Source: Planctomycetota bacterium
Lineage (GTDB): Bacteria > Planctomycetota > UBA11346
Reading direction: 5' to 3'
Length of the DNA: 64,000 nucleotides
Assembly (NCBI GenBank): GCA_023150565.1
Contig: JAKLKR010000004.1
Location: 1 to 64,000, forward strand
Under the pieces are notes generated by a model. That model searched no databases. It was not told where the DNA came from and saw nothing but the letters and a program-made list of their open reading frames with translations. Below are positions 1 through 21,339 of the stretch, piece by piece. Each line of letters opens with the position of its first letter. The stretch's first letter is position 1. The position numbers and the translations under genes are program-made.

Positions 1-2301
1 ATTGCGGGCAAAACCGCTCCCGGTGAGGGTGATCGCCACCGAGGCGCTGCCCGCGGGCAGGGTCGCCGGGCTGATGGCGGTGATGGCCGGGGTGGGATAG
101 GGCAGGTGACCATGGATGGTCAGGCTGGCGTTCTCCAGGGTGCCGGTCTGTCCGCTCACCCAGTCATAGACGCGCAGCTGCCAGGTCCCATTGGGCGTCT
201 CCCCCCAATGGGCGACGCTGGTGAAGGTGTAGTCCAGGTTGGCCGCGGCATCATTGGGCCGGCGCTCAATGAAGCTGGTGCTGCCGGACGGGGAGGTCAG
301 CAGGTAGGAGAGCTGGCCGATGGCGGGATGGGTGACCTGGACATGCAGTTCGACGTGCTCGATGGCGAAGGCTGGGGCGGCACCAGCCACGGTGATGGTG
401 GCCTGCCCCGTACCCGGGGTGACGTCCGTGGTGGTGGCATCGCTGATCGCCCGCGCTGGGATGCTGGCGGTGGCGGTGATGGGGGTCGCCGACGCCGGGA
501 CAGAGACCCAGCTGTGTGCCGCCCGCACGGCCTTGGCGGCGGCAATCCGGCCGAACCCGTAGCGGACGGAGTGGTTCCGGGCCGGGACGGCCCCATTGGA
601 CTGCCATCGTTTCCAGGAGCGCACCTGGGCGGGTTGGCGGAATGCTGGCTGCAGCGCCCGGTTGGCGTCGGTCAGGAACTCGTCGCTGGTATCGCAGGGT
701 ACGGCGTGGTTGGCGATGAGGTGCATCACATCACGGTAGGTGAGCCGAGGATTGGCCTCCAGCACCAGGGCGACAACGCCAGCCACCAGCGGGGCAGCGA
801 AGGAGGTGCCCTGCTGGTAGTCCGACGGCGCGGTGTAGTCGCCGCTCACCCAGCCGTTGGTACCGGCCCGGTCCAGCGAGACGATACCCTTGTTGATGAA
901 GCGGCTGGTGCGCCAGTCCCAGGTGTTGCCCCCAGGGGCCACGCAGAACAGCCCGCATCCGCTCTGGCTGTAGAAGAACCGGCCCTGACCGGCGGTCTCG
1001 TCGATGGCTCCGACCGCCAGCACCCGGCGATTGGACACCCACTGGTCGTAGTTGGCGTTGTGCCCGGATGTAGGATCGGTGACGCTGAAGTAGTCGTTAT
1101 TGCCGGCGGCGAAGCAGTAGACGATGCCACGCCCGCAGCGCCCCTGGTGAATGCCGTTGTCCAGGGCGGTGGCCCAACTGGGGAACAGCACGGCGGCGCC
1201 CTGGGACCCCGGTCCCCAGGCCCAGGAGTTGTTGGAGACCCAGGTCCGGATGGTGGGATCGGCGGATACCGGGCTCAACAGGTGAGTGAGGGCTGCCTCC
1301 ACCGCATCAGGCTGCTGCACCCCGGGCGAGAGCCGGGTGCCGACCACCTGGACCGGGATGAGGGTGGCTCCCGGGGCGACCCCGACACCACCCAGACCGT
1401 TATACCCTTGGGCGGCGATGAGGCCGCCAACGAACTCCCCGTGGCTGTCGTTGGCACCCAGCAGGGAGGCCGTCTGCGACTCGCGGTAGGAGTACCCCAG
1501 GTCCGCGCGCAGGTTGGCGCCCAGGTCGGGGTGAGGCTCCATCCCGGAATCCACCACCGTGACCGTCACTCCGCGACCCAAGCCATTGCCCGTCACATAG
1601 TTCCAGACCGTGGACACGTCGACGTCGGCGATGCCGCCATCGCTCAGGTGGTATTGCTGGGGAAAGAGCGGGTCGGTGGGGGTGCCCTGCAGTGCCAGGG
1701 GTGGCAGGAGGACGGGGTGGGCGTACTCGACCCCGGTGACGCCCTGGAGCGCCCTGGCGCAGGCCACCGGTGCCAGGAGATCGGTGGCGGTGGGGGTGAG
1801 GATCCAGCTTCGCTCATCGTGGGCGGCCTGCCGCACCACCTGGACCGGGTGCCCAGTGATGACCGCCCCGATGGCGACGCCGGGCAGCAGGCGGACCACC
1901 AAGGTGTGGTCCAGGATGGTGGCCTGGGCCACGGTGGCCTGGCTGCCAGCGGGGTGGAGCAGGGCCCGCGGCTGGGCACCGAGGTGGGCTGCCTGGGCCC
2001 GGGCGACGGCTGCGACATCAGCGCCGGGGACTCCGGCGGGGATCGCCACCACCGGCATTCCGCGCACCACCGTCAGCGGATGATCGGGAGTGGCGGCGGC
2101 CACCCGGGTGGCCAGCGCCCGGGGATCGTTCGCCACCAGGGCGATGTGGTGCGGGTCCACCACCAGGGTCTGGGACCAGCCGGGACCCTGGATGTGGACG
2201 GTGTCCTCCGCCGGGAGGTCGCCGGCGGCCAGCAGGACGGCCAGGGAGAGGGGGAGGGCAAGGACCGGGACGGGGCGGGGGAATGGGCGGCTGAGGAGCA
2301 T
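1..2301 (-). CDS. Secreted subtilisin-like S8 peptidase, kexin/proprotein-convertase-like with C-terminal P-domain. Partial: the C-terminus runs off the window start.
   Basis: Reverse-complement translation gives an N-terminal signal peptide MLLSRPFPRPVPVLALPLSLAVLLAAG starting at ATG 2301..2299. Catalytic triad motifs are present in D-H-S order: VTVTVVDSGMEPHPDL (~1540), LGANDSHGEFVGG (~1450) and QQGTSFAAPLVAGVVALVLEANPRLTYRDVMH (~800). The last resembles the furin/kexin GTSASAP...LTWRDMQH block, and P-domain-like sequence follows down to position 1. The gene is absent from the ORF track because its stop lies outside the window. Confidence 0.85.
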   Translation of the reverse strand, partial: MLLSRPFPRPVPVLALPLSLAVLLAAGDLPAEDTVHIQGPGWSQTLVVDPHHIALVANDPRALATRVAAATPDHPLTVVRGMPVVAIPAGVPGADVAAVARAQAAHLGAQPRALLHPAGSQATVAQATILDHTLVVRLLPGVAIGAVITGHPVQVVRQAAHDERSWILTPTATDLLAPVACARALQGVTGVEYAHPVLLPPLALQGTPTDPLFPQQYHLSDGGIADVDVSTVWNYVTGNGLGRGVTVTVVDSGMEPHPDLGANLRADLGYSYRESQTASLLGANDSHGEFVGGLIAAQGYNGLGGVGVAPGATLIPVQVVGTRLSPGVQQPDAVEAALTHLLSPVSADPTIRTWVSNNSWAWGPGSQGAAVLFPSWATALDNGIHQGRCGRGIVYCFAAGNNDYFSVTDPTSGHNANYDQWVSNRRVLAVGAIDETAGQGRFFYSQSGCGLFCVAPGGNTWDWRTSRFINKGIVSLDRAGTNGWVSGDYTAPSDYQQGTSFAAPLVAGVVALVLEANPRLTYRDVMHLIANHAVPCDTSDEFLTDANRALQPAFRQPAQVRSWKRWQSNGAVPARNHSVRYGFGRIAAAKAVRAAHSWVSVPASATPITATASIPARAISDATTTDVTPGTGQATITVAGAAPAFAIEHVELHVQVTHPAIGQLSYLLTSPSGSTSFIERRPNDAAANLDYTFTSVAHWGETPNGTWQLRVYDWVSGQTGTLENASLTIHGHLPYPTPAITAISPATLPAGSASVAITLTGSGFARN

Positions 2302-2410
2302 GGGGAGGGGACTCGGGGGGATGCGCGGTGGACCGGAAGGGATTTAGGGGGGCATGATTCCTTGTCAGGACTCATCTACGACCTGTGGCAATGACGGGTA
2401 GCATGGCCCT

Positions 2411-2824
2411 ATGCTGTCCTTTTCCTCGTTCCTATGCGCGTTGCTGGAGGAGCGGAAGCTGTCCGGGCGGTCGTTCGCCCGCCTGGTGGACGGCAATCAG
2501 AGCTACGTGTCCAAGATCCTGCGTGGCAGCCGGCCACCGCCGGATGGGAAGCTGCTGCTGCACTGGGCCGACCAGCTGGCCCTGACCGACCAGGAACGCC
2601 GCTGGTTCCTGGTGCTGGCGGATCTGGAGACCATGCCGCCCCGGCTGCTGCCGGTGGTCCGGCAGCTGATCCTCCAGGCCCAGGCCCCGCGGCGGGGTGC
2701 CGCGCGTGCCGGTGGCGGACGGGCGGCGGTCGACCACTGGCGCCTCCTGTGCGACTGGATCGAGCAGCGGGAGATCCCGGTCCCGGATGAACCAGTGGTC
2801 CCGCGCCACCGCCCCACCAATTGA
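2411..2824 (+). CDS. XRE-family helix-turn-helix transcriptional regulator, divergent from the S8 peptidase gene.
   Basis: ORF-track protein with N-terminal LSGRSFARLVDGNQSYVSKILRG, an HTH_XRE-like motif. There is a 110-bp divergent intergenic region to the peptidase start. Confidence 0.55.
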   Translation: MLSFSSFLCALLEERKLSGRSFARLVDGNQSYVSKILRGSRPPPDGKLLLHWADQLALTDQERRWFLVLADLETMPPRLLPVVRQLILQAQAPRRGAARAGGGRAAVDHWRLLCDWIEQREIPVPDEPVVPRHRPTN

Positions 2825-2984
2825 CCGGACGCTGGGCCGCCAACGTCCTGATCGCACTGCCACGGCGGTCCACATAGGTGGGCGAACATAGTCCTGTTCA
2901 GGACTCGTCAATGGTCCGGCTTGCTGACATGGATGGGGTCGCACCCCACCACGATAGCGGGAGCGCGTGGTGCCGGCGTGGGGG

Positions 2985-3782
2985 TCAGGCCTGACCGGGA
3001 TCCGGCTCGGCCATCGCCGCGAGCATGGTGCGCAGGCGTTTCTGCGGATCGGCCAGCATGCCGCGGTAGAGCCGGACCAGGGGCAGGTCGTCGTAGGCCG
3101 TCTCGGTGATGCCGCGTCCATCGAGCAGCAGGATGCGGGCGCCCGGGTAGGCCAGCAGCAGCGGCGAGTGGGTGGCGATGATGAACTGGCTGCGTTCCTG
3201 GGCCAAGGCCTGGATGCGGCAGATCACCGCCAGCTGCCGCTGCGGCGATAAGGCCGATTCCGGCTCATCCAGGAGGTAGAGTCCCTGGGGCCCGCACCGG
3301 TGCATGAACAGATCCCAGAACGACTCGCCATGCGACCGCTCGTGCAGGGTGCCGCCGCGGCCGCCGGTGTAGGAGTCCATCAGGGGCGGGGCGCCGGCGG
3401 GCTCGGCATCGAGTTCCTCGATCGCCGAGATGACATTGTAGAAGGACTCGGCGCGCAGAAAGAAGCCGGTACGCGGCTTGCTGCCGTTGCGCGTGACCGC
3501 CAGGTGGGAGCAGAGGGCGCTATGCGATGCCCGGGTGCTAAAACGCAGGTTGACCGATCCCCCCTCCGGGTTGAAGCCGCAGGCGACCGCCAGGGCCTCC
3601 AGGATGGTGGATTTCCCGCTGCCGTTCTCACCGACCAGGAAGGTGACCGGGGCGGTCAGGGCGAGGCCGCGCTGCAGGGCCTGGACCGGTGGCAGGTTGA
3701 ACGGATGGACATCCACCTGGTCGCCCGGCGGGGTCCGGCAGGCGACGCGGAGGAGCCAGTAGGGGGATGTGAGTCCAGCCAT
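2985..3782 (-). CDS. AAA_21/ABC-like P-loop ATPase, a small SMC/RecF-like ATPase of the kind common in abortive-infection/defence pairs.
   Basis: Walker A FLVGENGSGKSTILEAL, Walker B/D-loop LYLLDEPESALSPQRQ, and His-loop IIATHSP. Its start overlaps the stop of the upstream phosphatase-like ORF at 3782. Confidence 0.8.
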   Translation of the reverse strand: MAGLTSPYWLLRVACRTPPGDQVDVHPFNLPPVQALQRGLALTAPVTFLVGENGSGKSTILEALAVACGFNPEGGSVNLRFSTRASHSALCSHLAVTRNGSKPRTGFFLRAESFYNVISAIEELDAEPAGAPPLMDSYTGGRGGTLHERSHGESFWDLFMHRCGPQGLYLLDEPESALSPQRQLAVICRIQALAQERSQFIIATHSPLLLAYPGARILLLDGRGITETAYDDLPLVRLYRGMLADPQKRLRTMLAAMAEPDPGQA

Positions 3783-4120
3783 CAGCGCCGTTGCCGAGGA
3801 CCCGGCCGGCCCAGCACCGGCTCCAGGGCGTCGCGCAGCTCCGCATCCAGGCGCGGATCGTGGAGGGAATGCCCATCGGGAACGCCCACGTCGATGATGT
3901 CGGGCAGGTCGCCGGTGAAGGTGGAGCGGATCCAGGCCTCCTGGGCCGGCTCAAAGACGATCACCCGCTCCGCCCACAGCAGATCCTGGTCGGTCACCGG
4001 ATGGGCGGCCCGGGGATCGGTGCCCGCCGAGCGGACAGAGAGGCCCGGCACACCCCGGTACAGCCGCTCGGCGGCGACGCTGCGGGCGTGGTTCAGCGTG
4101 CAGACGAACAGGACGTTCAC
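3782..4120 (-). CDS. Low-molecular-weight protein-tyrosine-phosphatase / ArsC-like small phosphatase (short, divergent).
   Basis: N-terminal VLFVCTLNHARS matches the CX5R(S) P-loop of LMW-PTP/ArsC. A VRSAGT motif lies downstream. The ORF is translationally coupled to the TPR ORF upstream and the ATPase ORF downstream. Confidence 0.55.
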   Translation of the reverse strand: MNVLFVCTLNHARSVAAERLYRGVPGLSVRSAGTDPRAAHPVTDQDLLWAERVIVFEPAQEAWIRSTFTGDLPDIIDVGVPDGHSLHDPRLDAELRDALEPVLGRPGPRQRR

Positions 4121-4761
4121 GGCCGGATGGTGACCCCGACCAGGGCGATGAACCAGGGCTGGGAGCGGTAGCGGTCGAACACCACATCGCGGCGGACGAA
4201 GGTGATGAAATGCTCATCCCCCAGGTCGAGGCACTTGGCGATGGCGGCCGCCAGTTCGGTCTGATCGCCCACCGAGCCGTAGAAGCAGGCGCGGCAGCCC
4301 CAATAGGTGCTTTCCGTGCGGTCACCGACGGGCGGCACGGGGACGCTGGCAAACAAGGCCTTCGCCTCCTCCTGCCTGCCGATCTCCCACAGCCAGGAGG
4401 CCTTGACCAGGGTCGGATGCAGGGTGTCACCACCGGTGGCCCGGGTTGCGCTGATCGCCTGGTCCGCCCAGGCGATGGCTTCGGCATACTTCCCCTGCTT
4501 GCCGGCGAAGACCGAGAGGTTGGCGTAGATCAGCGGGTAGTGGTCGGCGACGTCCAGGTGCTTCCGGTACAGCGCCTCGCTCTGGTCGTACTGGCGGGCG
4601 TCGCTGAAGATCCCGGCCAGGCGCAGATCGTCGTTGGGCGTCCGCCCAGGCTTGGCTTCCAGGCTGGCCGCCATGCGGCGGTAGACCGGATCGTCGACCA
4701 GGTCCATGGCTGGCAGGATGGCGGCACAGGCGAGCAGGGTGAGCACGGCGATACGATGCAT
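4117..4761 (-). CDS. Secreted TPR-repeat protein.
   Basis: Signal peptide MHRIAVLTLLACAAILPA, then TPR-like helical repeats (YDQSEALYRKHLDV..., KYAEAIAWADQAI...). I placed the start at the first Met preceding the signal peptide inside the ORF-track ORF 4117..4803. Confidence 0.55.
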   Translation of the reverse strand: MHRIAVLTLLACAAILPAMDLVDDPVYRRMAASLEAKPGRTPNDDLRLAGIFSDARQYDQSEALYRKHLDVADHYPLIYANLSVFAGKQGKYAEAIAWADQAISATRATGGDTLHPTLVKASWLWEIGRQEEAKALFASVPVPPVGDRTESTYWGCRACFYGSVGDQTELAAAIAKCLDLGDEHFITFVRRDVVFDRYRSQPWFIALVGVTIRP

Positions 4762-5012
4762 GGCGGGGAGCGTGGGTCCGCCTGGCTCGCAGGCAAACAG
4801 CACCTGGCTGGGGATGCGGTGGAATGCAGATCATCGGGTGTTCGGCGAAACACGATGGATGCGGCTACCGTTGGCAGGACCCGGCTTGCCGCTTCCTCCT
4901 GGATGCTCACGCTCCTGACCGTGTCTGCCATCGGTGACCACCTCCGCGCCACCGAGAATCCCGCTGGCTACACCTCGTTGGGAGGCTCCCTGCTGGACCG
5001 GGCCATCCCCGC

Positions 5013-6497
5013 TTGGCCATGAGGGTGTTGGTGCGTGTCGCTGCGGGCGATGACCGGCCCTCCGCCGGCCAATGCCTCGGCCCTTGCCGGAATGCCCTCC
5101 TGGGCGGCCTGCTGGTCCTGCTGGCTGGATGCGCCGACCAGGTGGCGCGGTCGCTGTGCGAGAAGTCGCGCCGGCCTGATCCGGCCGCCATCGCCACCTC
5201 CCAGATGGGTGCTGGCCAGATGGGGCGGTTCACGGACGTACGGCAGCCCATGGCCCTGGACTTCACCATGGACGAGGAACCGCCCACCGGTGTGCGTCCG
5301 CGGGTGGTGACGATCCCCGGCGGGCGGGTGGCCATCGGTGTGATCGAGCCGAGCCAAGCACCTTACACCATGACCTGGTTTGCCGTCGACGGTGACGAGC
5401 GGGCCATACCCACCCTGCCGGATGGGCATGGTCCCTGCATGCCGGCACCGCGTGGCACCGTCCTGATCCTGCATGGCTGGAATCAGACCATGTACGACTC
5501 CCTGGGGTGGGCTACGGCGGCGGCGAACCTGGGCTTGCGATCCATCGTGGTTGACCTGGCGATCTTTACCGCAGAGCCCTGGGAGCGCACCACCTTCGGT
5601 CCCGCGGAGCGGCGGTTGGTACGCGAGCTGCTCGCCGAGTTACGCCATGACGGCACCCTTCAGGGCCCGGTGGCCTTGTGGGGCTATTCGATGGGAGCTG
5701 CCATCGCGCTGGCCGTCGCCGCCGAAGAGCCCTGCCTGGCCGGCGTCATCGCGGTCGGACCCTACGCCCGGCTCCACGACGCTCTGGAGGCCGGGCGCGG
5801 CGAGGCGCCGTGGTACCAGCGGTGGTGGCTGTCCACCACAGCAGTTGAACAGGCGGTCACCGCCAGGACCGGCCGGACTCCGGCGGACGAGCCGGTGGCC
5901 ACCCTGCCCAAGATCACCATCCCTGTCCTGCTGATCGCCGGTGCCGACGACCCCTATGCCCCGCCCAGCGCCATCACCGCCCTGGGCCGATTGGCACCAC
6001 ACGCCACGGTGACCGTGGTGCCGGAGTCACACCAAGCCTTGCCCTGGACCGCCCTGGAGCCGGCGGCGACCTGGCTCACCGAGCAGGTGGCCGGCGCTGT
6101 TCTGCTCGCGCCCTGGCGTTGCGATGGCGCGGGGTTGCCGATTCCCTCCTTGGCCACCATTGAGGGGCGCGGTAGCTACCTGGCCGCCTGTCATCCGGGC
6201 GACGAGCCGATCACCTGGGTCACCGATGGCACGCTCCCGTTGCGGTGGTGGGGCCACGACATCCTGGTGGAGTTGGGGCCTATCATTGCTGGCGGCGTCC
6301 AGGTGTCCTGGGCCGGCATCCCCCTGGCATGCACCGGGGCGGTGAACGACAGCGCCGGTGTGCACGTGGTCATCCCGGGGTGGTTGGCGATGGGTCACCA
6401 GTCCCTCCGCCTGACGCTCTCTGGTGGAGAGCCCTACCGCCGGGTCATCGGTCGGTTGCTCGGCCGAGGGGTTGCTCGCCTGGCCCGGGACCCGTGA
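5013..6497 (+). CDS. Lipoprotein alpha/beta-hydrolase (serine hydrolase) with a C-terminal extra domain.
   Basis: Lipobox LLVLLAGCADQ, nucleophile elbow GYSMGAAIA (GxSxG), a downstream Asp region (GADDPYAP) and a His (PESHQALPW). The exact start is uncertain. Confidence 0.6.
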   Translation: MAMRVLVRVAAGDDRPSAGQCLGPCRNALLGGLLVLLAGCADQVARSLCEKSRRPDPAAIATSQMGAGQMGRFTDVRQPMALDFTMDEEPPTGVRPRVVTIPGGRVAIGVIEPSQAPYTMTWFAVDGDERAIPTLPDGHGPCMPAPRGTVLILHGWNQTMYDSLGWATAAANLGLRSIVVDLAIFTAEPWERTTFGPAERRLVRELLAELRHDGTLQGPVALWGYSMGAAIALAVAAEEPCLAGVIAVGPYARLHDALEAGRGEAPWYQRWWLSTTAVEQAVTARTGRTPADEPVATLPKITIPVLLIAGADDPYAPPSAITALGRLAPHATVTVVPESHQALPWTALEPAATWLTEQVAGAVLLAPWRCDGAGLPIPSLATIEGRGSYLAACHPGDEPITWVTDGTLPLRWWGHDILVELGPIIAGGVQVSWAGIPLACTGAVNDSAGVHVVIPGWLAMGHQSLRLTLSGGEPYRRVIGRLLGRGVARLARDP

Positions 6498-12003: not shown

Positions 12004-12011
12004 CATCAGTG

Positions 12012-12511: not shown

Positions 12512-13574
12512 CCTGCGTGCTAACGAGCCGCAGGAACTCACGCGGCCGTCATTTTTCTGCGCGTCCAGCGATGCTTTCTGATCTTGGTCCAGGCCCAGTG
12601 CCTGCTGGCAACCATGGCCGTGAGGAGGCGGTCGGTGATGGTCTGTTCCTGCCCATCGGGCTTGGCGTCGCGATAGCGGTTTCGCCGGTTGGTGCGCCAC
12701 GAGAACTCGGCGGTGTAGAGGTCGAGATGCCGGCGGCAGGTGTTGCGGTGGGTTCCCAGGAGCCAGCTCTTGAGGTTGGAGATCTGGCGATGGACGAGCT
12801 TGAACTGGATGGCGGAGCGCTTGCCGCCCAGGCTGACTTCCGGCCGATGGACGAAGCCCCTCTGTGTCAGCGCCGTATAGCTGCTGAGAGCATCGGTGCG
12901 GATCTGGGCGCCGGGTTGGATCTTGGCGCCAATGACCTTGAGAAGGGATTTGGAGGTGACATCGGCCACTGGGCGCAAGGCAATGTAGCCAGTGAGGTTA
13001 TCGCCCATCTTCTCGACCATCGCCAGCACCGGTGTCTTGTGCTTGGTCGATCGTCCGCGCACTCCAGCCCCGGCCGCAAGCCCGCCGACATAGGCCTCAT
13101 CCACCTCGATCAGGCCGGCCAGGCGGTAGCCCTCGTCCCGCTCCTGCATCGCATGCCGCAGCTTGTGCAACAGATGCCAGGCCGTTGGACCACTGCACCC
13201 CACGTGCTTCGCCAGCGATTTCCCCGAGATCCCCTGCTTGTTGGCCGAGATCAGGTACATCGCCAGGAACACCTTCGGCAGCGGCAGCTTGAAGAAGGCG
13301 AAGGCCGTGCCGCTGGTCACCGACGTTTGGCGCCCGCATCCGATGCACTCGAAACCTCGCCGCCCGGGCAGCGCGTAGCCCCCGGCATGACGACAGTGCG
13401 GGCACACGAACCCCTGCGGCCATCGGCGCTCCCGGATCCGCGCCAGGCAGGCCTCCTGCGTGGCGTGCTGGGCTAGAAAGTCAGGCAGAGAGGCGGATTG
13501 GATCAAGGGGTTCATGATGGGTATATATAGACCCATTCAGCACTTCCGCAACCTGCGGCTCCTTAGCACGCAGG
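12512..13574 (-). mobile_element. IS1595-family insertion sequence, 1063 bp, nested inside the IS1634 transposase gene.
   Basis: Terminal inverted repeats: left CCTGCGTGCTAACGAGCCGCAGG, and the right-end reverse complement CCTGCGTGCTAAGGAGCCGCAGG (24/25 match). It is flanked by a perfect 8-bp direct repeat TAAAGGAT at 12504..12511 and 13575..13582. Removing the element plus one TSD copy restores one continuous IS1634 transposase frame (...MKDKGFNLAEFTEERLAKALDD...). Confidence 0.85.
12538..13515 (-). CDS. IS1595-family transposase (N-terminal zinc ribbon plus DDE).
   Basis: CPHCRHAGGYALPGRRGFECIGCGRQTSVTSGTAF zinc ribbon, IEVDEAYVGG motif, and a DDE region. A TATATATA-like motif lies between Met 13536 and Met 13515, so I chose the downstream Met. 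Confidence 0.8.
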   Translation of the reverse strand: MNPLIQSASLPDFLAQHATQEACLARIRERRWPQGFVCPHCRHAGGYALPGRRGFECIGCGRQTSVTSGTAFAFFKLPLPKVFLAMYLISANKQGISGKSLAKHVGCSGPTAWHLLHKLRHAMQERDEGYRLAGLIEVDEAYVGGLAAGAGVRGRSTKHKTPVLAMVEKMGDNLTGYIALRPVADVTSKSLLKVIGAKIQPGAQIRTDALSSYTALTQRGFVHRPEVSLGGKRSAIQFKLVHRQISNLKSWLLGTHRNTCRRHLDLYTAEFSWRTNRRNRYRDAKPDGQEQTITDRLLTAMVASRHWAWTKIRKHRWTRRKMTAA

Positions 13575-13582: not shown

Positions 13583-15105
13583 TCAACCTGGCCGAGTTTA
13601 CCGAGGAGCGCCTAGCGAAAGCACTCGACGACCTCTTTGATGCGGATCTAGACCGACTGATGACCGGCATCGCTTTGCAGGCTGTCGACCAGTTTCGCCT
13701 TGGCACTGACTTCCTGCACTTCGACACCACCTCGCTGAGCTTTTTTGGCGCCTATGAGAGTGAGGGCTTTGGTTCGATGAGCGATGGTTCGAGCAAGCCG
13801 CCATTGGTCACCCATGGCTACTCCAAGGACCACCGGCCAGACCTGAAGCAAATCATGTTCGGGTCGCTAGTCACTCGGGATGGGGGCGTTCCGCTCTATG
13901 GAAAGGCGCTGGACGGGAATCGCTCGGACAGTGAGTCGGCCGCCGAGTTCTTTCAGCGCGTTCGTTCGCTCGTGCGCGATCCCAGGGAGGTCTGCTGTGT
14001 AGCCGACAGTAAGGGGTGGTGTGGTCCAGTCCTGGCACTGGTGCAACGCGAAGGACTACGTCTCTTGTCTCGACTTCCACGGCATCATCGCCTGCACCGC
14101 GAGATCATGGCCGCCTCGTGTTCCTCCATGGAGCGCGTTGAGCGATCTGCGCCAAAGGGCTCAAAGGAGCCAGACTTTTACGAGATTTCCGGGTTCGACG
14201 TCGAGGAAGTGCTGACGATTGAAGTCCCATCGACTAAGCCAGACGGCAAGCCAAGTCGCCAGCAGCTTCACATCCCCGCTCGCGCAGTTCGCGTATTCTC
14301 CTCTGCTCTGTTTCGTCAGAAGTTGGGCACCCTTCAGCGGACCAAGACATCAGAATCAAAGCAGGTTCAGCGACAGATCGCGGAGTGGCACGCGGTGGCC
14401 TATGCCTGCGTCGAAGACGCTGAGCGGGCAGCTAAACGCAATATGGCCGAAGCTGGTTTCACCACTCTCGACTTGGTCGCCACAGTCCATGAAATCGCTG
14501 GACCGTTCCGGCGCGGCCCAGGACGCCCTCGCAAACAACCGGAGCAAGACCTGGAGACCGAGCGGCACTACCGAATCACGTATACCACCGTGTTCGTGCC
14601 CGAGGCGGAGGTCATGGAGCGCCTGCGCCTGTCAGCCACCTTCATCCAGATCCGCACGCGAAACCCGGGGTGGCAGATTGCCGATGCCGAGATGATAGAC
14701 GCGTACAGAAATCAGTATCTATGCGAACATGGCTTTTCCTGGTTGAAATCCGGAAGTGGTCCCAGGGGCCTCAACCCGATTTACCTGGAAACCCCCAAAC
14801 GAATTGCCGCACTCTGCTTTCTTTATCTGATCGGACTCATGGTCTGGACGCTGATCCAACGCACGGTGAGAATGACCTTGGTGAAGTGGAACACAGGACT
14901 CCCGTACCACAGAAATAAGCCAAGTCCAAAGATCACCACGAGATTCTACTTTGAGCTTTTTCCAAAACTCCAGACCGTGACCTACAAACTGCCAGGCGAG
15001 GAGTGGCAGAAGGTGGTCGGGATCAACCCTGTCATAGAATTGGCGCTCAAGGCACTCGGCACACGCGGAGACACGCTTGTCCCGGTCGCTGAAAATACAC
15101 CATAA
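13583..15105 (+). pseudogene. IS1634-family transposase, C-terminal DDE portion, separated from its N-terminus by the IS1595 insertion.
   Basis: ORF-track 13660..15105, extendable in frame back to 13583 immediately after the TSD. Contains LHFDTTSLSFFGAYE and HGYSKDHRPDLKQ, motifs characteristic of IS1634/IS4-type transposases. Confidence 0.75.
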
Positions 15106-15235: not shown

Positions 15236-16069
15236 CTAATATATCACCGATCTAACGCTCGGTGATTTTTCCTTAAGTCGCGATTTAAGCCACTCACCAT
15301 CTCCATTTAACCCATCAATGTGGACACAAGATAAACCACGTATTGTTGACAATGCGTCCGCCAGCGCCCCGTCTAATACCACCCTTGATGAAGACAACAC
15401 CAATGTATCCACGGAGGCATTTAGACCACATAGGTGATTATGCACCCAATGATTATCAACGCTAGTCTCCCTAAAATCCAGGGTGTTATACGACAAGGCA
15501 TTTACATCCCTAAAGATGTTGGCCATGCAATCTGTATTCCGACTTTCCTGAAACGACAAACTAAGATTCCGGAGGCCAATAGGAACGTCCAACGAAAACC
15601 CTCTCAAATCCACCCCCATCAGCGCGATTGACTGCATGTCCTTGCTTGCACTGCAATTAAGTCCACCACCCATATTTTTACATCCATCTATCGTTACGCC
15701 AGTCGCCCTCTCACCCGTCACAAGCAACGTGCGACTCTCTGTAAAATAGCACCTTCTCATGGTCAGGCTCCGCAGACCCTTCCAATCATTCATCCCTCTC
15801 AGTGTTTCTCCGTCAATTTCCACATCGGCCATTTCAAAGTATTCTATAGACTGAACCTTCCTGAGACAATCAACAATCCAGCCTCGACCTCCGCCGACAT
15901 CAGCCGCGTTCAACGATCCCAAAGCATTCGCCTTAACGCAAAACTCTACAAAAACATCCTTTGTGAAGGCTGGATTTCGAATTTCCAGTCTCGTCACCCT
16001 TTTATTCATTCGTTGGATATATCGCCTTAACGCCTCGTCATTTGCAGATGGGCCACGTAAGCGCCACAT
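15236..16069 (-). CDS. Leucine-rich-repeat-like protein, the putative cognate immunity protein for the upstream RHS toxin.
   Basis: ATG at 16069 overlaps the RHS stop in a TGATG arrangement. The gene is lower-GC like the RHS C-terminal tip. Cys-containing LRR-like segments are present (LRSLTMRRCYF, LRNLSLSF, LSCVHIDGL). Confidence 0.5.
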   Translation of the reverse strand: MWRLRGPSANDEALRRYIQRMNKRVTRLEIRNPAFTKDVFVEFCVKANALGSLNAADVGGGRGWIVDCLRKVQSIEYFEMADVEIDGETLRGMNDWKGLRSLTMRRCYFTESRTLLVTGERATGVTIDGCKNMGGGLNCSASKDMQSIALMGVDLRGFSLDVPIGLRNLSLSFQESRNTDCMANIFRDVNALSYNTLDFRETSVDNHWVHNHLCGLNASVDTLVLSSSRVVLDGALADALSTIRGLSCVHIDGLNGDGEWLKSRLKEKSPSVRSVIY

Positions 16070-19000
16070 CAGAACGCCCACCTACAAACCGTTTGCAAAG
16101 AGTTTGCAACCGTTTGCTTCTTGTGCGAATCCCTGCATTTCTCCTCGCAACTTGAGTCGCCATAGCAGCTTGACATACAATCCTTCAGCCAGTCATTAAT
16201 CGAATCCTGTTCCTTTGCACCCTGGTCGTATACGTCGTAGACATTTAACACAAACAACGCCTTTCCCGCCACTTTACGAACCACCTTAGTTCCCACCCCG
16301 GCTCCCGCCACGGGCTTAGGGGGCGCATGTTTTCTGCCGTCTATCTTTTTCTTGGAATGCTTGCCTCGTTCGGTTTTCTTATTTGGATTCGACCCTTTTT
16401 TCATTTCATCCATGTGTTTGTCAATTTCAGAATCAGGAATTCCGGCCTTGCGAAGGGATTCACGAATATGCTCTTCCCTCTGCGCATCTGAGAGTCCCTT
16501 CCACTTCTCTAACGCCTTCTCTGGATTCTCTTTGGGCATTCCTTCCTTTCTGAAATAATCATGCACAGCGTCGTGCTGTTCTTTGGTAAGGTCCCACAAA
16601 GGCTGATCGTTTGATCCTCCAAGGTGCAGGGGATATCCATGGTGATCAGGGGCTCCAGTTGGGTCGATCGTCTGGAACATACCAATGCCACCAAGGTACA
16701 TGGTCATTCCATCCACATAGACACCGTCCTTGGACAACATGTCTACATACATTAATTCCACCCCCTCCTCGAATAAATCCACGTATCCCCATCCGGGCCC
16801 AGCCGAATTTTCATTTCGCGAAACATAGGAACCGGCCTTCGAGCTGAAATATCTCGACCTTGCATACAATAACGCAGTTTCCACATCGTAGTAGAACCCC
16901 GTAAATCCACGCCCCAAACCCGCTACAGCAGCCCCTCTCAACGTCCCATCTGGCGCAAGAACGGCCTGCTTTCCATAGGCGTCGTAACGGAAGCGTTCGA
17001 CCACGGTTCCGGCCGCACTGGTCACAGCGGTTGGCGAATAGAGATGGTTGCCGCTGACAAAGGATCGAACCGCACCAACATCAAATGCCAGAACCTCGTC
17101 GATGTAGGTCCCATGCGTGAAGCGCTTCACTATCGATCCGGTGATTTCGACCACAACCCGAGCGCCGTCGTGCACAAAAATGGTTACCGTGCCATCGCCC
17201 AGGGCTTTGCTGATGCGGCGACCCAAGGCGTCGTAAGAATAGCTGCCCAGGATCACGTTGCTGGCGTCCCGCGCCTGGATCAAGCGGTTCTCCACATCCC
17301 AAGTCAGCACAAGGCCATCCTGATCCTGAGCCAGATTTCCCTTCTGGTCGTAGAGCAGTGGCGTGGTCACGCCCGCCGCGGTCAACGAGGTGGTTTCATG
17401 CACATCACTGTGGGTCCGCGTCTCCGTCACGCCGTTGCGCGTGATCGACTGCCAATCGCCCACCAGGCTCAACTGCCAGTTCTGCGACTCCTGCCCATCG
17501 CGCTGCCACGAGGTCAGGCGGCCGGCCGGATCATAACTGAAGGCCTGGTTGCGCTGCGGATCAAGACCATCGTCCTCCGCCGTCTTGCGCTTGGCTGCGT
17601 CGTAACTGTAGGCGAACTGCGCCACGCCGGGGGTTACGATGCCGGCCACGAGATGGTCGTTCGGCACATACGTCCGGGTCTCGGTGAGTCCATTGCCCAG
17701 GGCCGTAGCGACCAGGCGACCCGCATCGTCGTAGCTCCGGTTCGCAACCAATCCGCCGCCGATGGCAACCTGCGCCAACTCCTTGCGGGGGGTGAAGGTG
17801 CGGGCCAGCACGGTGCCGTCCGGGTACGTGACCTCAGTTGGCTGGTTATCGGCGCTATAGGCGTAGCCGACCGTGTAGGTCGTGCCGCCGATCACCTGTT
17901 CCTCACGGGTCAGACGGCCGGCATGCTCGCCGTTGTCGGTGTAGAACCGGCGCACGGTGGAACCATACCGGGCACTCACCGCACTGGTCAGGCGGCCGGT
18001 GGTATCGTAGCCATAGGTGTCGTTCAAGCCGTCCGGGTACTGACGGGCAACCAGACGGTTGGCTGCGTCGTACTGGTAGGTCGTCACCACCCCTGCCTGG
18101 TCGGTGCGGGAGGCCAAACGCCGGCCCGGATCATAGGTGTAGCTGCGGCGGTCCGTGGTACCCGGCGTCTGCTGGCCGGCCGGGAAGGTTTCCTGGGTCA
18201 ACAGACTGCGTGCATCATAGACATAGGTCGTGATCTTGTTCTCGGCGTCGGTGATGCTGAGCAGGTTGCTGTCCTGGTCATAGGCAAACTGCGTGACACC
18301 GCCATTGCGGTCCGTTTCACTGGCCTTGCGGTTGCGCACATCAAAAGCGGTGGTCTGGACCCGGTTGAGTTGGTCCGTCTCGCTAACCACATTCCCCTCC
18401 GCATCATACCCGCGACGGGTCGTGGCACCGGCAGTGTCGGTTCGGCCGATCTCATGATTTCGCAGATCGAACACCGCATCGAACCCGATAGCAAGCGGAT
18501 CGCGATGCGATACCAGATTGCCATCGGCATCGAAGCCACGTGCAGTCACCTTGCCAAGGGCGTCCACCTGCTGGCGGGCGCGGCTTGCACCATCGAGACG
18601 GTGAACCGTGGTCGCTGCCACCGGATCGGTTGCACGAACTTCCACCAGCCCCGACGACACGGTGTCGTAGGCCGTGGTCCATGCGGCCCCATTGCCGTTG
18701 ATGCGACGCAACTCGCGCCCCAACCCGTCAGCGACCTGGACCGTCACCTCACCGGCCGGGTTCGTCGCCACTATGATGAGGCCACCGGCACCACTACCGC
18801 GATTCAAACCAGCAATCCAAGCAGGATTGGCGACTTCCAGGCCCTGTCCATCCACCACGTTCGCCTCATAGGCATACGTAGTGGTCTCGCCGAGGCCATT
18901 GGTTTGGGCAATGACGCGGTTCAAGCCATCGTAGGTGGTGGTCCCAACAATCCCGTTCGCATCCGTTACCGACGTGCTATTGCCGATGAAATCATAGGCA

Positions 19001-21339
19001 AAAGAGGTCTGGTACCCCAGCGGATCGAGGACCTTCACCAAGCGATCGCAGCAGGTGCCATACTGGAAGGTGGTCACATTGCCGCGGAAGTCGCTCTCGG
19101 TGGCCTTCTTGCGACTCAAGGTATAGGTCGTGGTCTTGGTTGCCGTGACAGGGGTCCCCACTGCCACCGATTGGCTCGCCCGCAGATTCCGGCCCGTGTA
19201 GGTATACTCGGTCACCGTCCCACGGGCGTCCGTGGCGCGGATCACATTGTTGGCGCCATCAAAGGCAAAGGTCGTGGTTCCTGCCTCGGGCATGCCCGTG
19301 GCCTCGGTGCGCGCTACGAGACGGCCCCGGCCATCGTAAGCCATGCTTTGTACCGCCCCGCGACCGTTCGTGGCCGTCACCTCCTGGGACTCGGCGTCCA
19401 GGGTCCGATCGGTGATGACATAGTTGGGGTTGGCGGTGAGAATCCGCGCCAATCCATTGAGGAAGGTTTGGCACTGGGTGGGATCGCTGGGAGCCGCCAC
19501 GGTTCCCGGCAGCAGTTCCTGCACCGTCCGCACCGGGCGTTGCAGGCTATCATAAGCCCGCCACGTGCGCCGACCGTAGGGGTCGGTCACCGCTTGGAGA
19601 CGGTTCTTGGTGTCATAGGCGTACTGGGTCAGCAGGGTCGTCGACGCCGAAGCAGCCACCGTCTCCTTGGTGGTGCGACGGCGCGTGTCGTACTGGAAGG
19701 TCGACAGCGTCCCATCCACAGTCTTCGTGTCGACCAGAGTCGTGCCCGGCTGGTAGGTCCAGGCCGTTGAGGCGAGCACGGTGGCGCCGGTCGGAGGTAG
19801 CCTGCGCGTGCTGATGCGTCGTCCCGCCCCGTCATAGCCATGCTCGGTGCGGTTTCCGTTGCGATCAATCTCTACTGCGACCAGGTTGGCGTCGACGCCC
19901 GTCCCGTACACGGTCTGGTCGGTGCTGCCATCGGCATAGGTCTTGGTGGTGAGCCGGTTGCGCGAGTCGTAAGCCAGCTGGGTGGTGACCGTTCCCGTTC
20001 CACCAGGAGCAGTGATCTGGGTCACGCGGCCATTGCCGTCATACCCATACGAGGTCACCGCTCGCGGGCCGCCGGCCTGGTCGGCCGGTTCGGTAACGCT
20101 GGCCAACTGGCCGAGGGCATCGTACGCGAAATCCGTGCGGTTGCCGCGCGGATCGGTTTCCGATGCCCGGCGGGCCACGCCATTCACGGTCGTGTAGGTG
20201 TATGTCCAGGTCGCGGTATCCGCCGTGGTCTCGGTGAGCTGGGTGGTCGAATTCCAGCGCAGGCCGACGGTCTTGGTCAGTTGATTGCCCTGGCTGTCGA
20301 AGGTACCGGCCTCGGCCCGCTTGAGCCGATCCACCGACAAGGTCATGCGCTGATTCTGGTCATAGCGCACCAGGGAGGTCGTGCCGTCCGGGTAGGTGGC
20401 CTGGCTGAGGTGGCCATCGGTCCCATAGGTCACCGTCAATGCCAGACCCTGCGGGCTGACCAGCTTGGACGGGGTCCCTCGGTACCATTCGCGCACAGCG
20501 GAGGCCGCCTTGTACGAGTCCGTGCCGTAGGTGGATTCCCAGTTCGCCTTGACGTGGGCGTAGGTCACCGGCGAGGTCGGGGTCGCCTGTTCGATGTACC
20601 AGGTTTTGGCAAACTGCCGCCGGTGCTCCAGGTCGCCCGGCATGTAGAAGGCATCGTAGTACATCCGCCCGGCACCCTCGTAGATGTACGGGGCCGTTCC
20701 CCAGGGGTGGGGGAAGTTCAGATACGATACCTCGTCGGCGCCATTGACCAGCATGCGCAAGAGCTGGGCCGACTGGGGGAAGACGCTGCCGGTGTCGGCA
20801 ATCCGCGTATAGGTGGTGGTCAGGTAGGCGGTTTTGCGCCGGTGCTCGTCCTTGGCGGCCGGATCGTTGTAGGCGACGGTGATGCATTTGGCGGAGGCCG
20901 AATAGCCGCGCACGAAGGTGGCCTGGTCGCCATTGGCCAGGGTCGCGCCCGCCAGCATGCCGCCGGAATAGGTGTAGGAGACCGACTGGTTGCCGGGGAA
21001 GTCGATCCGCTCCACCGCCCACCGACCCGACTGCTGCTGGCTGCCGTAGACGAAGGTCGCCGAGCGTCCGAAAGCGTCGGTCACCTGATTGATCTGCCAC
21101 AACCGGGCCGGCGAACCGCCGAGGTCATCCGTCGGGGCATACCGGTAGCTGACGGTCATGGCCGAACCGTCGGGTTCCTGGTACTTCACGATGCGACCCA
21201 CCCGGGCCGAACCGATGGTCACGATCTGGAAGGTACGCTGCTCGCCGTCCTTGAGGGTCAGAACCGCGGTAGCGGCCAACGCCTGGTCGGTGGTCAACTG
21301 ACCGCACAGGTGTAGATGCCGTCGAGGACATCCGTGCAC
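16069..21339 (-). CDS. RHS/YD-repeat polymorphic toxin: a large beta-rich repeat shell with a variable Lys-rich C-terminal tip.
   Basis: Dozens of YD-repeat units (YDALGRRISK, YDANGNLV, RYDAYGKQ, YDSRNRLTT...), an RHS-core-like segment (...RYF...QTIDPTGAPDHHGY), then about 190 low-GC, lysine-rich C-terminal residues at 16069..16700. No signal peptide at the annotated Met; see the frameshift finding. Confidence 0.85.
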   Translation of the reverse strand: MHGCPRRHLHLCGQLTTDQALAATAVLTLKDGEQRTFQIVTIGSARVGRIVKYQEPDGSAMTVSYRYAPTDDLGGSPARLWQINQVTDAFGRSATFVYGSQQQSGRWAVERIDFPGNQSVSYTYSGGMLAGATLANGDQATFVRGYSASAKCITVAYNDPAAKDEHRRKTAYLTTTYTRIADTGSVFPQSAQLLRMLVNGADEVSYLNFPHPWGTAPYIYEGAGRMYYDAFYMPGDLEHRRQFAKTWYIEQATPTSPVTYAHVKANWESTYGTDSYKAASAVREWYRGTPSKLVSPQGLALTVTYGTDGHLSQATYPDGTTSLVRYDQNQRMTLSVDRLKRAEAGTFDSQGNQLTKTVGLRWNSTTQLTETTADTATWTYTYTTVNGVARRASETDPRGNRTDFAYDALGQLASVTEPADQAGGPRAVTSYGYDGNGRVTQITAPGGTGTVTTQLAYDSRNRLTTKTYADGSTDQTVYGTGVDANLVAVEIDRNGNRTEHGYDGAGRRISTRRLPPTGATVLASTAWTYQPGTTLVDTKTVDGTLSTFQYDTRRRTTKETVAASASTTLLTQYAYDTKNRLQAVTDPYGRRTWRAYDSLQRPVRTVQELLPGTVAAPSDPTQCQTFLNGLARILTANPNYVITDRTLDAESQEVTATNGRGAVQSMAYDGRGRLVARTEATGMPEAGTTTFAFDGANNVIRATDARGTVTEYTYTGRNLRASQSVAVGTPVTATKTTTYTLSRKKATESDFRGNVTTFQYGTCCDRLVKVLDPLGYQTSFAYDFIGNSTSVTDANGIVGTTTYDGLNRVIAQTNGLGETTTYAYEANVVDGQGLEVANPAWIAGLNRGSGAGGLIIVATNPAGEVTVQVADGLGRELRRINGNGAAWTTAYDTVSSGLVEVRATDPVAATTVHRLDGASRARQQVDALGKVTARGFDADGNLVSHRDPLAIGFDAVFDLRNHEIGRTDTAGATTRRGYDAEGNVVSETDQLNRVQTTAFDVRNRKASETDRNGGVTQFAYDQDSNLLSITDAENKITTYVYDARSLLTQETFPAGQQTPGTTDRRSYTYDPGRRLASRTDQAGVVTTYQYDAANRLVARQYPDGLNDTYGYDTTGRLTSAVSARYGSTVRRFYTDNGEHAGRLTREEQVIGGTTYTVGYAYSADNQPTEVTYPDGTVLARTFTPRKELAQVAIGGGLVANRSYDDAGRLVATALGNGLTETRTYVPNDHLVAGIVTPGVAQFAYSYDAAKRKTAEDDGLDPQRNQAFSYDPAGRLTSWQRDGQESQNWQLSLVGDWQSITRNGVTETRTHSDVHETTSLTAAGVTTPLLYDQKGNLAQDQDGLVLTWDVENRLIQARDASNVILGSYSYDALGRRISKALGDGTVTIFVHDGARVVVEITGSIVKRFTHGTYIDEVLAFDVGAVRSFVSGNHLYSPTAVTSAAGTVVERFRYDAYGKQAVLAPDGTLRGAAVAGLGRGFTGFYYDVETALLYARSRYFSSKAGSYVSRNENSAGPGWGYVDLFEEGVELMYVDMLSKDGVYVDGMTMYLGGIGMFQTIDPTGAPDHHGYPLHLGGSNDQPLWDLTKEQHDAVHDYFRKEGMPKENPEKALEKWKGLSDAQREEHIRESLRKAGIPDSEIDKHMDEMKKGSNPNKKTERGKHSKKKIDGRKHAPPKPVAGAGVGTKVVRKVAGKALFVLNVYDVYDQGAKEQDSINDWLKDCMSSCYGDSSCEEKCRDSHKKQTVANSLQTVCRWAF

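What the first reader, a model, noticed from the sequence alone, without database searches (positions are those of the whole stretch)
2985..4761. A translationally coupled secreted-TPR / LMW-phosphatase-like / AAA_21 ATPase operon
The AAA_21 (SMC/RecF-like) ATPase start codon overlaps the stop of a 112-aa protein whose CX5R(S) loop (CTLNHARS) is that of a low-molecular-weight tyrosine or arsenate-type phosphatase, though the protein is unusually short. Small AAA_21 ATPases typically partner with nucleases or other effectors in abortive-infection systems (AbiL, PARIS, Septu). A phosphatase-like partner is not a described combination. A secreted TPR protein heads the operon.
Basis: partly seen in the sequence, partly recalled or inferred. 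Interest (0 to 1): 0.5.

Follow-up and report, generated by a model that had tools for sequence, protein, structure and literature searches.

The report
Local TPR / mini-phosphatase / ATPase operon
Three tightly packed genes really are there: an exported TPR protein, a very short cysteine phosphatase-fold protein and a small ABC-type ATPase. The phosphatase–ATPase pairing is confined to one small lineage, both genes belong to widespread uncharacterised families that usually occur apart, and nothing points to a new phage-defence system.

Summary
On the minus strand, a TPR gene (4803/4761..4117), a 112-aa gene (4120..3782) and a 265-aa gene (3782..2985) overlap by GTGA and TGATG. The 112-aa protein carries CTLNHARS. 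A confident AlphaFold model (pLDDT 91.7) matches YwlE, LMW-PTPs and ArsC, so the phosphatase fold holds. The ATPase passes Pfam AAA_21 (1e-18).

The interpretation as a new abortive-infection-type pair is not supported. It sits beside unrelated neighbours. Defence models match only its P-loop and Walker-B/H-loop stretches. The short phosphatase family (673 clusters at 50% identity) also occurs in varied contexts.

About 30 phosphatase-centred loci lack the ATPase, apart from a near-identical relative of the window. Of about 90 ATPase-centred contexts, only three carry the phosphatase: two from the window's own clade and one distant locus. In that distant lineage the recurrent partner is a macro domain. 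ATPase orthologues at 75-85% identity lack the phosphatase.

Best reading: a lineage-restricted operon of two known but uncharacterised families. Interest is low to moderate.

The parts
4117..4803 (-). TPR protein: 228 aa from GTG 4803, more likely 214 aa from ATG 4761. It has a hydrophobic signal-like N-terminus, TPR repeats and a C-terminal 'TPR end-of-group' domain. First gene of the operon.
   Evidence: TPR_12 4e-8, TPR_10, TPR_7, TPR_8; NF047558 TPR_END_plus 9.6e-9, above cut-off; L006 gene call of 214 aa; alignment with homologues.
4117..4120 (-). GTGA overlap: GTG start of the phosphatase-like gene and TGA stop of the TPR gene.
   Evidence: Read directly.
3782..4120 (-). 112-aa minimal LMW-PTP/ArsC-fold protein of the 'short PTP' family. 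Sources name relatives 'predicted protein tyrosine phosphatase' or 'low molecular weight protein tyrosine phosphatase family protein'.
   Evidence: pLDDT 91.7; Foldseek top hits YwlE, LMW-PTPs, ArsC; RefSeq name of a P. aeruginosa relative; 673 clusters at E<=1e-10.
4079..4102 (-). Codons for the phosphate-binding loop C7-T-L-N-H-A-R13-S14 (CX5R-S).
   Evidence: C7, N10, R13, S14 invariant in 28 sequences.
3875..3877 (-). Codon of Asp82, invariant and lying in the loop between strand 4 and the last helix. Candidate general acid.
   Evidence: D82 invariant; strand 74-77, helix 89-103. The catalytic role is inferred by analogy with the DP loop of LMW-PTPs.
3780..3784 (-). TGATG overlap: the stop of the phosphatase-like gene and the start of the ATPase share one base.
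   Evidence: Read directly.
2985..3782 (-). 265-aa stand-alone ABC-type (AAA_21) ATPase of a very large conserved family. Sources name relatives 'AAA family ATPase' or 'predicted ATPase'.
3606..3632 (-). Walker A / P-loop G51-ENGSGKST-59 of the ATPase.
   Evidence: G51, N53, G54, G56, K57, S58, T59 invariant.
3258..3284 (-). Walker B region G167-LYLLDEPE-175 of the ATPase. The signature-like SHGES lies at residues 150-154 and the H-loop His at residue 205.
   Evidence: D172, E173, P174, E175, S150, H151, G152, E153 and H205 invariant.
2411..2824 (+). Convergent 137-aa helix-turn-helix (XRE/HTH_31-like) gene. It is a neighbour, not shown to belong to the operon.
   Evidence: HTH_31 2.3e-5, below cut-off. 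Conserved only in the near-identical contig L006.

Best explanation
This is a co-transcribed, translationally coupled three-gene cassette in a high-GC, probably planctomycete, genome. It brings together members of known but uncharacterised families. It is not a conserved two-component system.

Gene 1 is an exported or periplasmic TPR scaffold protein.

Gene 2 is a minimal cysteine phosphatase of the LMW-PTP/ArsC fold. Cys7 in the CX5R-S loop would attack a phosphate monoester to form a phospho-cysteine intermediate. Arg13 and the loop amides hold the phosphate. The invariant Asp82 most likely acts as general acid and base. The loop that shapes the phosphotyrosine pocket in 150-aa LMW-PTPs is deleted, so the substrate need not be phosphotyrosine.

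Gene 3 is a soluble ABC-type ATPase with Walker A, a signature-like SHGES, Walker B DEPE and an H-loop His. By analogy with other ABC/SMC-head ATPases it should dimerise around two ATP molecules.

Shown here: the gene structure, the folds, the conserved catalytic residues, and the sporadic, lineage-restricted distribution of the adjacency. Inferred: the chemistry, the export of the TPR protein, and the view that the adjacency reflects local operon packing rather than an obligate partnership.
For: Gene overlaps and codon bias.

Phosphatase fold and residues: C7, R13, S14, D82 invariant; pLDDT 91.7; top 50 PDB hits are all YwlE, LMW-PTP or ArsC; E down to 5e-5; query-normalised TM 0.52-0.72; profile hits YwlE at 1e-6 with a gap after strand 2.

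ATPase: AAA_21; about 60% mean column identity across Planctomycetota, Burkholderiales, Paenibacillus and a Labilithrix MAG; generic ABC nucleotide-binding fold.

No fixed partner for the ATPase: neighbour clustering of 81 loci finds only within-lineage synteny (RuvB/GlmM in gut-metagenome loci). Annotated contexts differ: S8 peptidase, M28 peptidase, recombinase, hemocin operon.

Pair distribution. It is present in the window, in L006 (97% ATPase identity), in L027 (77%) and in L029 (73%, which also has the TPR C-terminus). It is absent in L028 (76-78%), L120-122 (75-77%), L030-32 (66%), L123/124 (64-66%) and P0060 (61%). L029's ATPase is 85% identical to the phosphatase-less L028 and L120. 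No ATPase lies within about 4-6 kb in 19 genome loci, 4 plasmid loci and 7 metagenome contexts centred on the phosphatase. No plasmid record carries both genes: 53 carry the ATPase and 10 carry the phosphatase. No fusion of the two domains was seen among the ten longest of the 150 best phosphatase representatives.

The window neighbourhood is not a defence island: S8 subtilase, alpha/beta hydrolase, TPR protein, M28 peptidase, SPFH protein.
Against: The two genes overlap by one base, which implies coupled expression in this lineage. The TPR-phosphatase-ATPase order has survived about 25% ATPase and 36% phosphatase divergence (window, L027, L029).

One distant locus also places the two genes 2 nt apart, in the opposite order (L036: ATPase 52% identical, phosphatase 35% identical). 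For a rare family, a second adjacency among about 80 sampled loci is unlikely by pure chance. My rough estimate is under a few percent.

No experiment or co-fold prediction was possible, so a physical interaction is not excluded.

Sampling of contexts was limited by short metagenome contigs: 70 of 81 loci had at least 400 nt upstream and 61 of 81 had at least 400 nt downstream.
Confidence: 0.65

Rival explanations
1. The phosphatase-like protein and the ATPase form a genuine two-component module, with the TPR protein as a possible third part. One version is an ATPase sensor or switch whose output or reset is a dephosphorylation step. This could act in phage defence or stress signalling.
For: One-base stop/start overlap. 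The cassette is retained on three diverged branches: window/L006, L027 and L029. There is an independent tight adjacency in L036/P0171, in the reverse order. AAA_21-type ATPases are the NTPase components of several defence systems (established knowledge; PADLOC motif-level hits).
Against: No full-length match to any defence ATPase model. The protein is 265 aa against profiles of 304-627 positions, and only the P-loop and Walker-B/H-loop segments align. The pair is missing in close ATPase orthologues of 75-85% identity and in about 30 phosphatase-centred loci. In the L036 lineage the recurrent partner of the phosphatase is a macro domain, not the ATPase. The ATPase is 50-60% identical across phyla, which is unusual for fast-evolving defence genes. 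Its neighbours in the window are not defence or mobile genes. No hit to either protein was found in IMG/VR by the phosphatase profile. No such pair was found in the searched literature.
Confidence: 0.15
2. The 112-aa protein is not a protein phosphatase. It removes a phosphate from a nucleotide-derived or RNA-end substrate, for example ADP-ribose-1''-phosphate or a 2'/3'-phosphate. Its presence next to the ATPase here is incidental.
For: Members of the family are fused to a 2H/LigT phosphoesterase (P0347, 2_5_RNA_ligase2 3e-19) and to a Nudix zinc ribbon (P0338). In one lineage the gene overlaps or abuts a macro-domain gene in three different contigs, and it also does so in L036 with the ATPase in between. 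The loop that builds the aromatic phosphotyrosine pocket of 150-aa LMW-PTPs is missing.
Against: The window has no macro, 2H or Nudix gene nearby (and the Pfam scans). Other fusions and neighbours are methyltransferase, GNAT, DUF1294, FMN reductase and DUF1287, so the associations are heterogeneous. Some of the 'fusions' may be gene-calling artefacts. No biochemical data exist.
Confidence: 0.25
3. The ATPase is the energising subunit of an export or immunity system, a soluble ABC nucleotide-binding domain. The exported TPR protein is its cargo or partner.
For: It has the ABC nucleotide-binding fold. A 39%-identical relative sits inside the annotated hemocin bacteriocin operon of Avibacterium plasmid p250: HmcD, C39 peptidase, ATPase, hemocin, immunity protein. 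Other relatives lie a few kb from bacteriocin or lantibiotic-immunity genes.
Against: No permease or other membrane-domain gene is in or next to the window operon. There is no LSGGQ signature; the sequence is SHGES instead. NCBIfam transporter equivalogs score about 40 bits or less against cut-offs of about 130-800. Most family members stand alone among unrelated genes.
Confidence: 0.05

Closest known systems
Low-molecular-weight protein tyrosine / arginine phosphatases (Pfam LMWPc PF01451; e.g. B. subtilis YwlE, E. coli Wzb, M. tuberculosis MPtpA)
   Same: N-terminal CX5R(S/T) phosphate-binding loop straight after strand 1. Four-stranded parallel alpha/beta fold. A conserved Asp in the loop before the last helix. 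The best structural and profile matches are to this family.
   Different: 112 aa instead of about 150. The stretch after strand 2, which carries the aromatic pocket residues, is deleted. The window protein scores below the Pfam gathering threshold (19.6 against 23.2 bits). No kinase or capsule/EPS genes are nearby. The substrate is unknown.
Thioredoxin-coupled arsenate reductase ArsC of the LMW-PTP fold (S. aureus pI258, B. subtilis)
   Same: Same fold and P-loop, with similar Foldseek scores (query-normalised TM up to 0.72) and a comparably small size (about 130 aa).
   Different: The protein has only one cysteine (Cys7), so the Cys10/Cys82/Cys89 disulfide relay that defines these reductases is absent (sequence). 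There is no ars operon context.
Defence-system ABC/AAA_21 ATPases: PARIS AriA, Septu/retron PtuA, Gabija GajA, OLD, MADS mad3
   Same: Same ATPase superfamily. Walker A, Walker B and H-loop segments align.
   Different: Much shorter (265 aa), with no dimerisation insert or nuclease/TOPRIM domain. There is no effector partner gene. Scores lie far below the family cut-offs, for example PtuA 36.9 bits against 500. The family is strongly conserved and mostly stand-alone in non-defence contexts.
The stand-alone roughly 250-aa 'AAA family ATPase / predicted ATPase' family. IMG's name matches the COG3910 label; COG membership itself was not tested.
   Same: Full-length 50-78% identity to thousands of members, with all motifs shared. 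This is the family the window ATPase belongs to.
   Different: Nothing distinctive, apart from the local upstream phosphatase and TPR genes. The family has no solved structure, and the two full-text searches made here turned up no characterisation of it.

Membership tests
LMW-PTP superfamily (PF01451 fold) | CX5R(S/T) phosphate-binding loop at the N-terminus, after strand 1 | tested here: met
   C7-TLNHA-R13-S14. C7, N10, R13 and S14 are invariant in 28 homologues. Strand 2-7 is followed by helix 13-21 in the model.
LMW-PTP superfamily (PF01451 fold) | Rossmann-like fold of four parallel strands, superposable on solved LMW-PTP/ArsC structures | tested here: met
   AF2 pLDDT 91.7, pTM 0.85. All 50 listed Foldseek PDB hits are YwlE, LMW-PTP or ArsC, at probability 1.00.
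LMW-PTP superfamily (PF01451 fold) | General-acid Asp (DP motif) on the loop preceding the C-terminal helix | tested here: inconclusive
   An invariant Asp82 ('PD') lies between strand 74-77 and helix 89-103. Residue-level equivalence to the DP Asp was not superposed.
LMW-PTP superfamily (PF01451 fold) | Score above the Pfam gathering threshold | tested here: not met
   19.6 bits against a cut-off of 23.2, matching residues 3-36 only. Many relatives carry a precomputed PF01451 hit.
LMW-PTP superfamily (PF01451 fold) | Variable loop with aromatic residues forming the phosphotyrosine pocket; total length about 140-160 aa | tested here: not met
   The protein is 112 aa. The profile alignment to YwlE skips about 18 residues after strand 2: query 34 then 31 aligns to chain 38 then 56.
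Trx-coupled ArsC arsenate reductase | Three redox cysteines (P-loop Cys plus a Cys82/Cys89-type pair) | tested here: not met
   The only cysteine in the 112-aa sequence is Cys7 (sequence).
AAA_21 / ABC-type ATPase superfamily | Pfam AAA_21 above threshold, with Walker A, Walker B and H-loop present | tested here: met
   AAA_21 68.9 bits against 27. GENGSGKST, LYLLDEPE and H205 are invariant. ABC/SMC-head fold.
Defence ATPases (AriA, PtuA, GajA, mad3, OLD) | Full-length similarity to the system-specific profile, or the NCBIfam equivalog cut-off | tested here: not met
   PtuA 36.9 bits against 500 and MAD3 31.2 against 420. PADLOC hits cover only residues about 40-70 and about 160-215.
Defence ATPases (AriA, PtuA, GajA, mad3, OLD) | Adjacent cognate effector (TOPRIM AriB, HNH PtuB, helicase GajB, nuclease domain) | tested here: not met
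   The neighbours are the phosphatase-like gene, TPR, HTH, S8 protease and a hydrolase. PADLOC finds nothing for the phosphatase or the TPR protein.
Conserved two-gene system (phosphatase-like + ATPase) | Adjacency conserved across unrelated lineages | tested here: not met
   3 of about 90 ATPase-centred contexts and 0 of about 30 independent phosphatase-centred loci. The pair is broken within the window's own clade.
ABC transporter nucleotide-binding subunit (housekeeping ABC system) | LSGGQ signature, an adjacent permease gene, and a transporter equivalog score | tested here: not met
   SHGES replaces LSGGQ. No membrane-domain gene is adjacent. The best transporter equivalog scores 40.7 bits against 261.
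Sec-exported TPR protein | Cleavable N-terminal signal peptide | not testable with these tools
   A positively charged start followed by a 13-residue hydrophobic stretch (MHR-IAVLTLLACAAIL-PA) is conserved in kind in a homologue. No signal-peptide predictor was available.

The most novel reading that the evidence does not exclude
In this planctomycete-like lineage the TPR protein, the minimal Cys-phosphatase and the small ABC-type ATPase work together as a new module. The phosphatase would be the effector or reset enzyme of an ATP-driven switch, perhaps acting on a nucleotide- or ADP-ribose-derived phosphate rather than on protein. That would be a component combination not described for any defence or signalling system. 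The independent macro-ATPase-phosphatase arrangement in L036 would be a second version of it.
Probability: 0.1. Interest if true: 0.55.

Novelty: new member of a known kind. Interest (0 to 1): 0.2.

Why it matters
As it stands, the result is mostly a clean-up. It shows that an attractive 'ATPase plus unusual effector' gene pair is a local operon arrangement of two widespread orphan families, not a new defence system, so it should not be propagated as one.

Two things have residual value. First, the roughly 250-aa stand-alone ABC-type ATPase family is very large, highly conserved and has no solved structure. Second, the roughly 110-aa minimal LMW-PTP family has fusions and neighbours (macro, 2H phosphoesterase, Nudix) that hint at a non-protein, nucleotide-linked substrate. 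Either family would repay biochemical work, but this window adds only one more context for each.

Tried and rejected
1. Defence-system assignment. PADLOC, NCBIfam and PHROGs scans of all four proteins gave only P-loop and Walker-B motif hits for the ATPase and nothing for the phosphatase or TPR protein.

2. A conserved partner for the ATPase. All-against-all clustering of ORFs within 1.5 kb in 81 loci found only lineage synteny, RuvB and GlmM in gut-metagenome loci.

3. A conserved partner for the phosphatase. The same approach on 32 loci found only the ATPase, in loci that had been selected through the ATPase, plus synteny among four related loci.

4. Peptidase association. S8 and M28 peptidases lie near the ATPase in the window and on two plasmids, but tblastn of the window peptidases against all loci found no recurrence. 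I treated this as coincidence.

5. Phage association. The phosphatase profile found no relative in IMG/VR. The four hits in the 'phages' collection are unannotated fragments of 1.5-5.8 kb.

6. A solved structure for the ATPase. No close relative exists by sequence, and Foldseek gives only generic ABC folds at TM 0.38-0.48.

7. Arsenate reductase. Rejected because the protein has a single cysteine.

8. Promoter and terminator scan of 2300-5300. Nothing informative.

9. Literature. Nothing was found on an LMW-PTP plus AAA_21 pair. The hemocin search returned unrelated papers.

It was repeated with A3.

11. A complex prediction of phosphatase plus ATPase could not be run.
Full report
**What is there.** The window is about 69-70% GC around the finding. 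Three ORFs lie head to tail on the minus strand.
- A TPR protein at 4803..4117, or from the ATG at 4761.
- A 112-aa protein at 4120..3782.
- A 265-aa protein at 3782..2985.

The sequence shows a GTGA start/stop overlap at 4120-4117 and a TGATG overlap at 3784-3780. All three ORFs have the codon-position GC pattern of real genes in this genome, with third-position GC of 0.87-0.88. Their N-termini coincide with those of homologues. A 137-aa HTH gene (2411..2824, + strand) converges on the ATPase. Further out lie an S8 subtilase with a P-domain (1..2343, -), an alpha/beta hydrolase, a 673-aa TPR protein, an M28 peptidase and an SPFH protein. The best database relatives come from Planctomycetota MAGs.

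**The 112-aa protein.**
- Pfam LMWPc matches only residues 3-36, at 19.6 bits, below the gathering cut-off.
- The protein nevertheless belongs to a coherent family of roughly 105-150-aa proteins. Sources call them 'predicted protein tyrosine phosphatase' or 'low molecular weight protein tyrosine phosphatase family protein'.
- A profile search of 1.84 billion cluster representatives finds 673 clusters at E<=1e-10.
- In 28 homologues, C7, N10, R13, S14 and D82 are invariant.
- AlphaFold2 with that alignment gives pLDDT 91.7 and a four-strand, four-helix alternating fold.
- All 50 listed Foldseek PDB hits are YwlE arginine phosphatase, LMW-PTPs or LMW-PTP-type ArsC.
- A profile-to-PDB search also ranks YwlE first, and it shows that a stretch after strand 2 is missing.

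The protein has a single cysteine, which excludes a thioredoxin-coupled ArsC mechanism. The deleted region carries the aromatic phosphotyrosine pocket in canonical enzymes, so phosphotyrosine specificity cannot be assumed.

**The ATPase.**
- It passes Pfam AAA_21 (1e-18).
- A homology search returns 8000 clusters, the cap. The listed hits are 50-60% identical over the full length in Burkholderiales, Paenibacillus, a Labilithrix MAG and Planctomycetota.
- The alignment shows about 60% mean column identity, with invariant Walker A (GENGSGKST), SHGES, Walker B (LYLLDEPE) and an H-loop His.
- The AF2 model (pLDDT 86.7) is a generic ABC/SMC-head nucleotide-binding fold. Its PDB matches are only distant, at TM 0.38-0.48, and no close solved relative exists.
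- PADLOC, NCBIfam and PHROGs defence or phage models align only over the P-loop and the Walker-B/H-loop segments, far below any curated cut-off.

**Is the pair conserved?**

*From the phosphatase side, the following lack the ATPase:*
- contexts of seven different homologues;
- 19 further genome loci (Planctomycetota, Verrucomicrobiota, proteobacterial MAGs) within 4 kb;
- four chromid or plasmid loci, including the P. aeruginosa copy.

The only exception is L006, which is 93-97% identical to the window in all four proteins (TPR, phosphatase, ATPase, HTH) and so comes from essentially the same organism.

*From the ATPase side:*
- Of 80 metagenome loci, only three have a short-PTP gene.
- L027 (77% ATPase identity) and L029 (73%, also with the TPR C-terminus) have it immediately upstream.
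- L036 (52%) has it 2 nt downstream.

*ATPase orthologues that lack the phosphatase:*
- L028 (76-78%);
- L120-122 (75-77%);
- L030-32 (66%);
- L123/124 (64-66%);
- P0060 (61%).

In L028 the ATPase start instead overlaps an unrelated 97-aa ORF. L029's ATPase is 85% identical to the phosphatase-less L028 and L120, so the cassette has been broken within its own clade. Among PLSDB plasmids, 53 records carry the ATPase and 10 carry the phosphatase, and none carries both. Annotated ATPase neighbourhoods are heterogeneous. Neighbour clustering reveals only within-lineage synteny.

**The L036 case.** This is the one independent co-occurrence. The order is FMN reductase, macro domain, ATPase, phosphatase. 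Relatives of that phosphatase at 80% identity sit directly next to the macro-domain gene without any ATPase (L127, L128, L130). Relatives at 65-75% identity sit next to GNAT, FMN-reductase or DUF1287 genes. In that lineage the recurrent pair is phosphatase plus macro, and the ATPase appears as an insertion. A second adjacency of a rare family among about 80 loci is unlikely to be pure chance, so I keep a 10-15% probability for a real functional link. It does not amount to a conserved system.

**Mechanism.**
- Shown: operon structure, folds, conserved catalytic residues, and distribution.
- Inferred from the established chemistry of the LMW-PTP fold: Cys7 thiolate attack gives a phospho-enzyme, Arg13 and the loop amides bind the phosphate, and Asp82 acts as general acid and base.
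- Inferred from ABC ATPases: ATP-sandwich dimerisation through the Walker A and SHGES motifs, with hydrolysis by Glu173/His205.
- The TPR protein has a signal-like N-terminus that is conserved in kind and would act outside the cytoplasm. That makes a direct three-way complex with two apparently cytosolic enzymes less likely.

**Comparison with the known.** Each gene is a new member of a known but uncharacterised family. No described defence system combines an LMW-PTP-fold protein with an AAA_21 ATPase in the libraries and literature I could search. Here, absence from the catalogues reflects absence of a conserved system rather than a discovery. COG labels exist for 'Predicted ATPase' (COG3910) and 'Predicted protein tyrosine phosphatase' (COG4551), and they match the IMG names of the homologues. 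COG membership itself was not tested.

**Verdict.** Novelty: new member of a known kind. Interest 0.2.

Noticed in passing
window 12000-22000 (IS1595-type transposase 12538..13536 -; ORFs 13660..15105 +, 15236..16081 -, 16069..21339 -): A low-GC island (53-63% GC against about 69% around it) lies beside an IS1595-family transposase. It carries a 1756-aa RHS-repeat protein (RHS_repeat 1.8e-76) followed by a 281-aa ORF with no Pfam hit. This looks like a horizontally acquired polymorphic toxin with a candidate immunity gene.
   Followed up: partly
Representatives P0347, P0338, P0404; loci L127:774-1708, L128:493-1427, L130:3250-4184, L036:2012-3620: The short LMW-PTP-like family is fused in some proteins to a 2H/LigT phosphoesterase, to a Nudix zinc ribbon or to a SAM methyltransferase. 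In one lineage it is translationally coupled to a macro-domain gene. This hints at a nucleotide-, ADP-ribose- or RNA-end phosphate substrate rather than phosphoprotein.
   Followed up: partly
L125 (Avibacterium paragallinarum plasmid p250, NC_005245.1) 2922-3629: A 39%-identical member of the ATPase family sits inside the annotated hemocin bacteriocin operon: HmcD, C39 peptidase, ATPase, hemocin, immunity protein. On a B. cytotoxicus plasmid and a C. botulinum plasmid, relatives lie within a few kb of bacteriocin or lantibiotic-immunity genes. This may be a clue to one role of the family.
   Followed up: no
L001:1851-6339 (ENA ERZ27280282 k141_1042971): A 69%-identical phosphatase homologue lies 3.5 kb from a 33-35%-identical homologue of the window's TPR protein, on the opposite strand. 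Between them are PDDEXK_13/REase-ARP and HNH genes and two small ORFs, and there is no ATPase. This could be a remnant of a TPR-phosphatase linkage interrupted by an insertion.
   Followed up: partly
L003/L004/L005 (5723-6004 in L003) and the P0012 context: In two other lineages the phosphatase gene's start overlaps the stop of a DUF1294 gene (a protein of about 90 aa) by 4 nt. This is another lineage-specific coupling of the family.
   Followed up: no
L028:1276-1569: In the closest phosphatase-less ATPase orthologue (76-78% identical), the ATPase start overlaps the stop of an unrelated 97-aa ORF with no Pfam hit. The ATPase gene therefore joins different small upstream genes in sister lineages.
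   Followed up: partly
window 3300..4171, + strand: Long antisense ORFs (277 aa at 3300..4133, 126 aa at 3791..4171) shadow the phosphatase and ATPase genes and have fairly high third-position GC (0.82). They are the usual high-GC antisense artefacts, and homology supports the minus-strand genes.
   Followed up: yes
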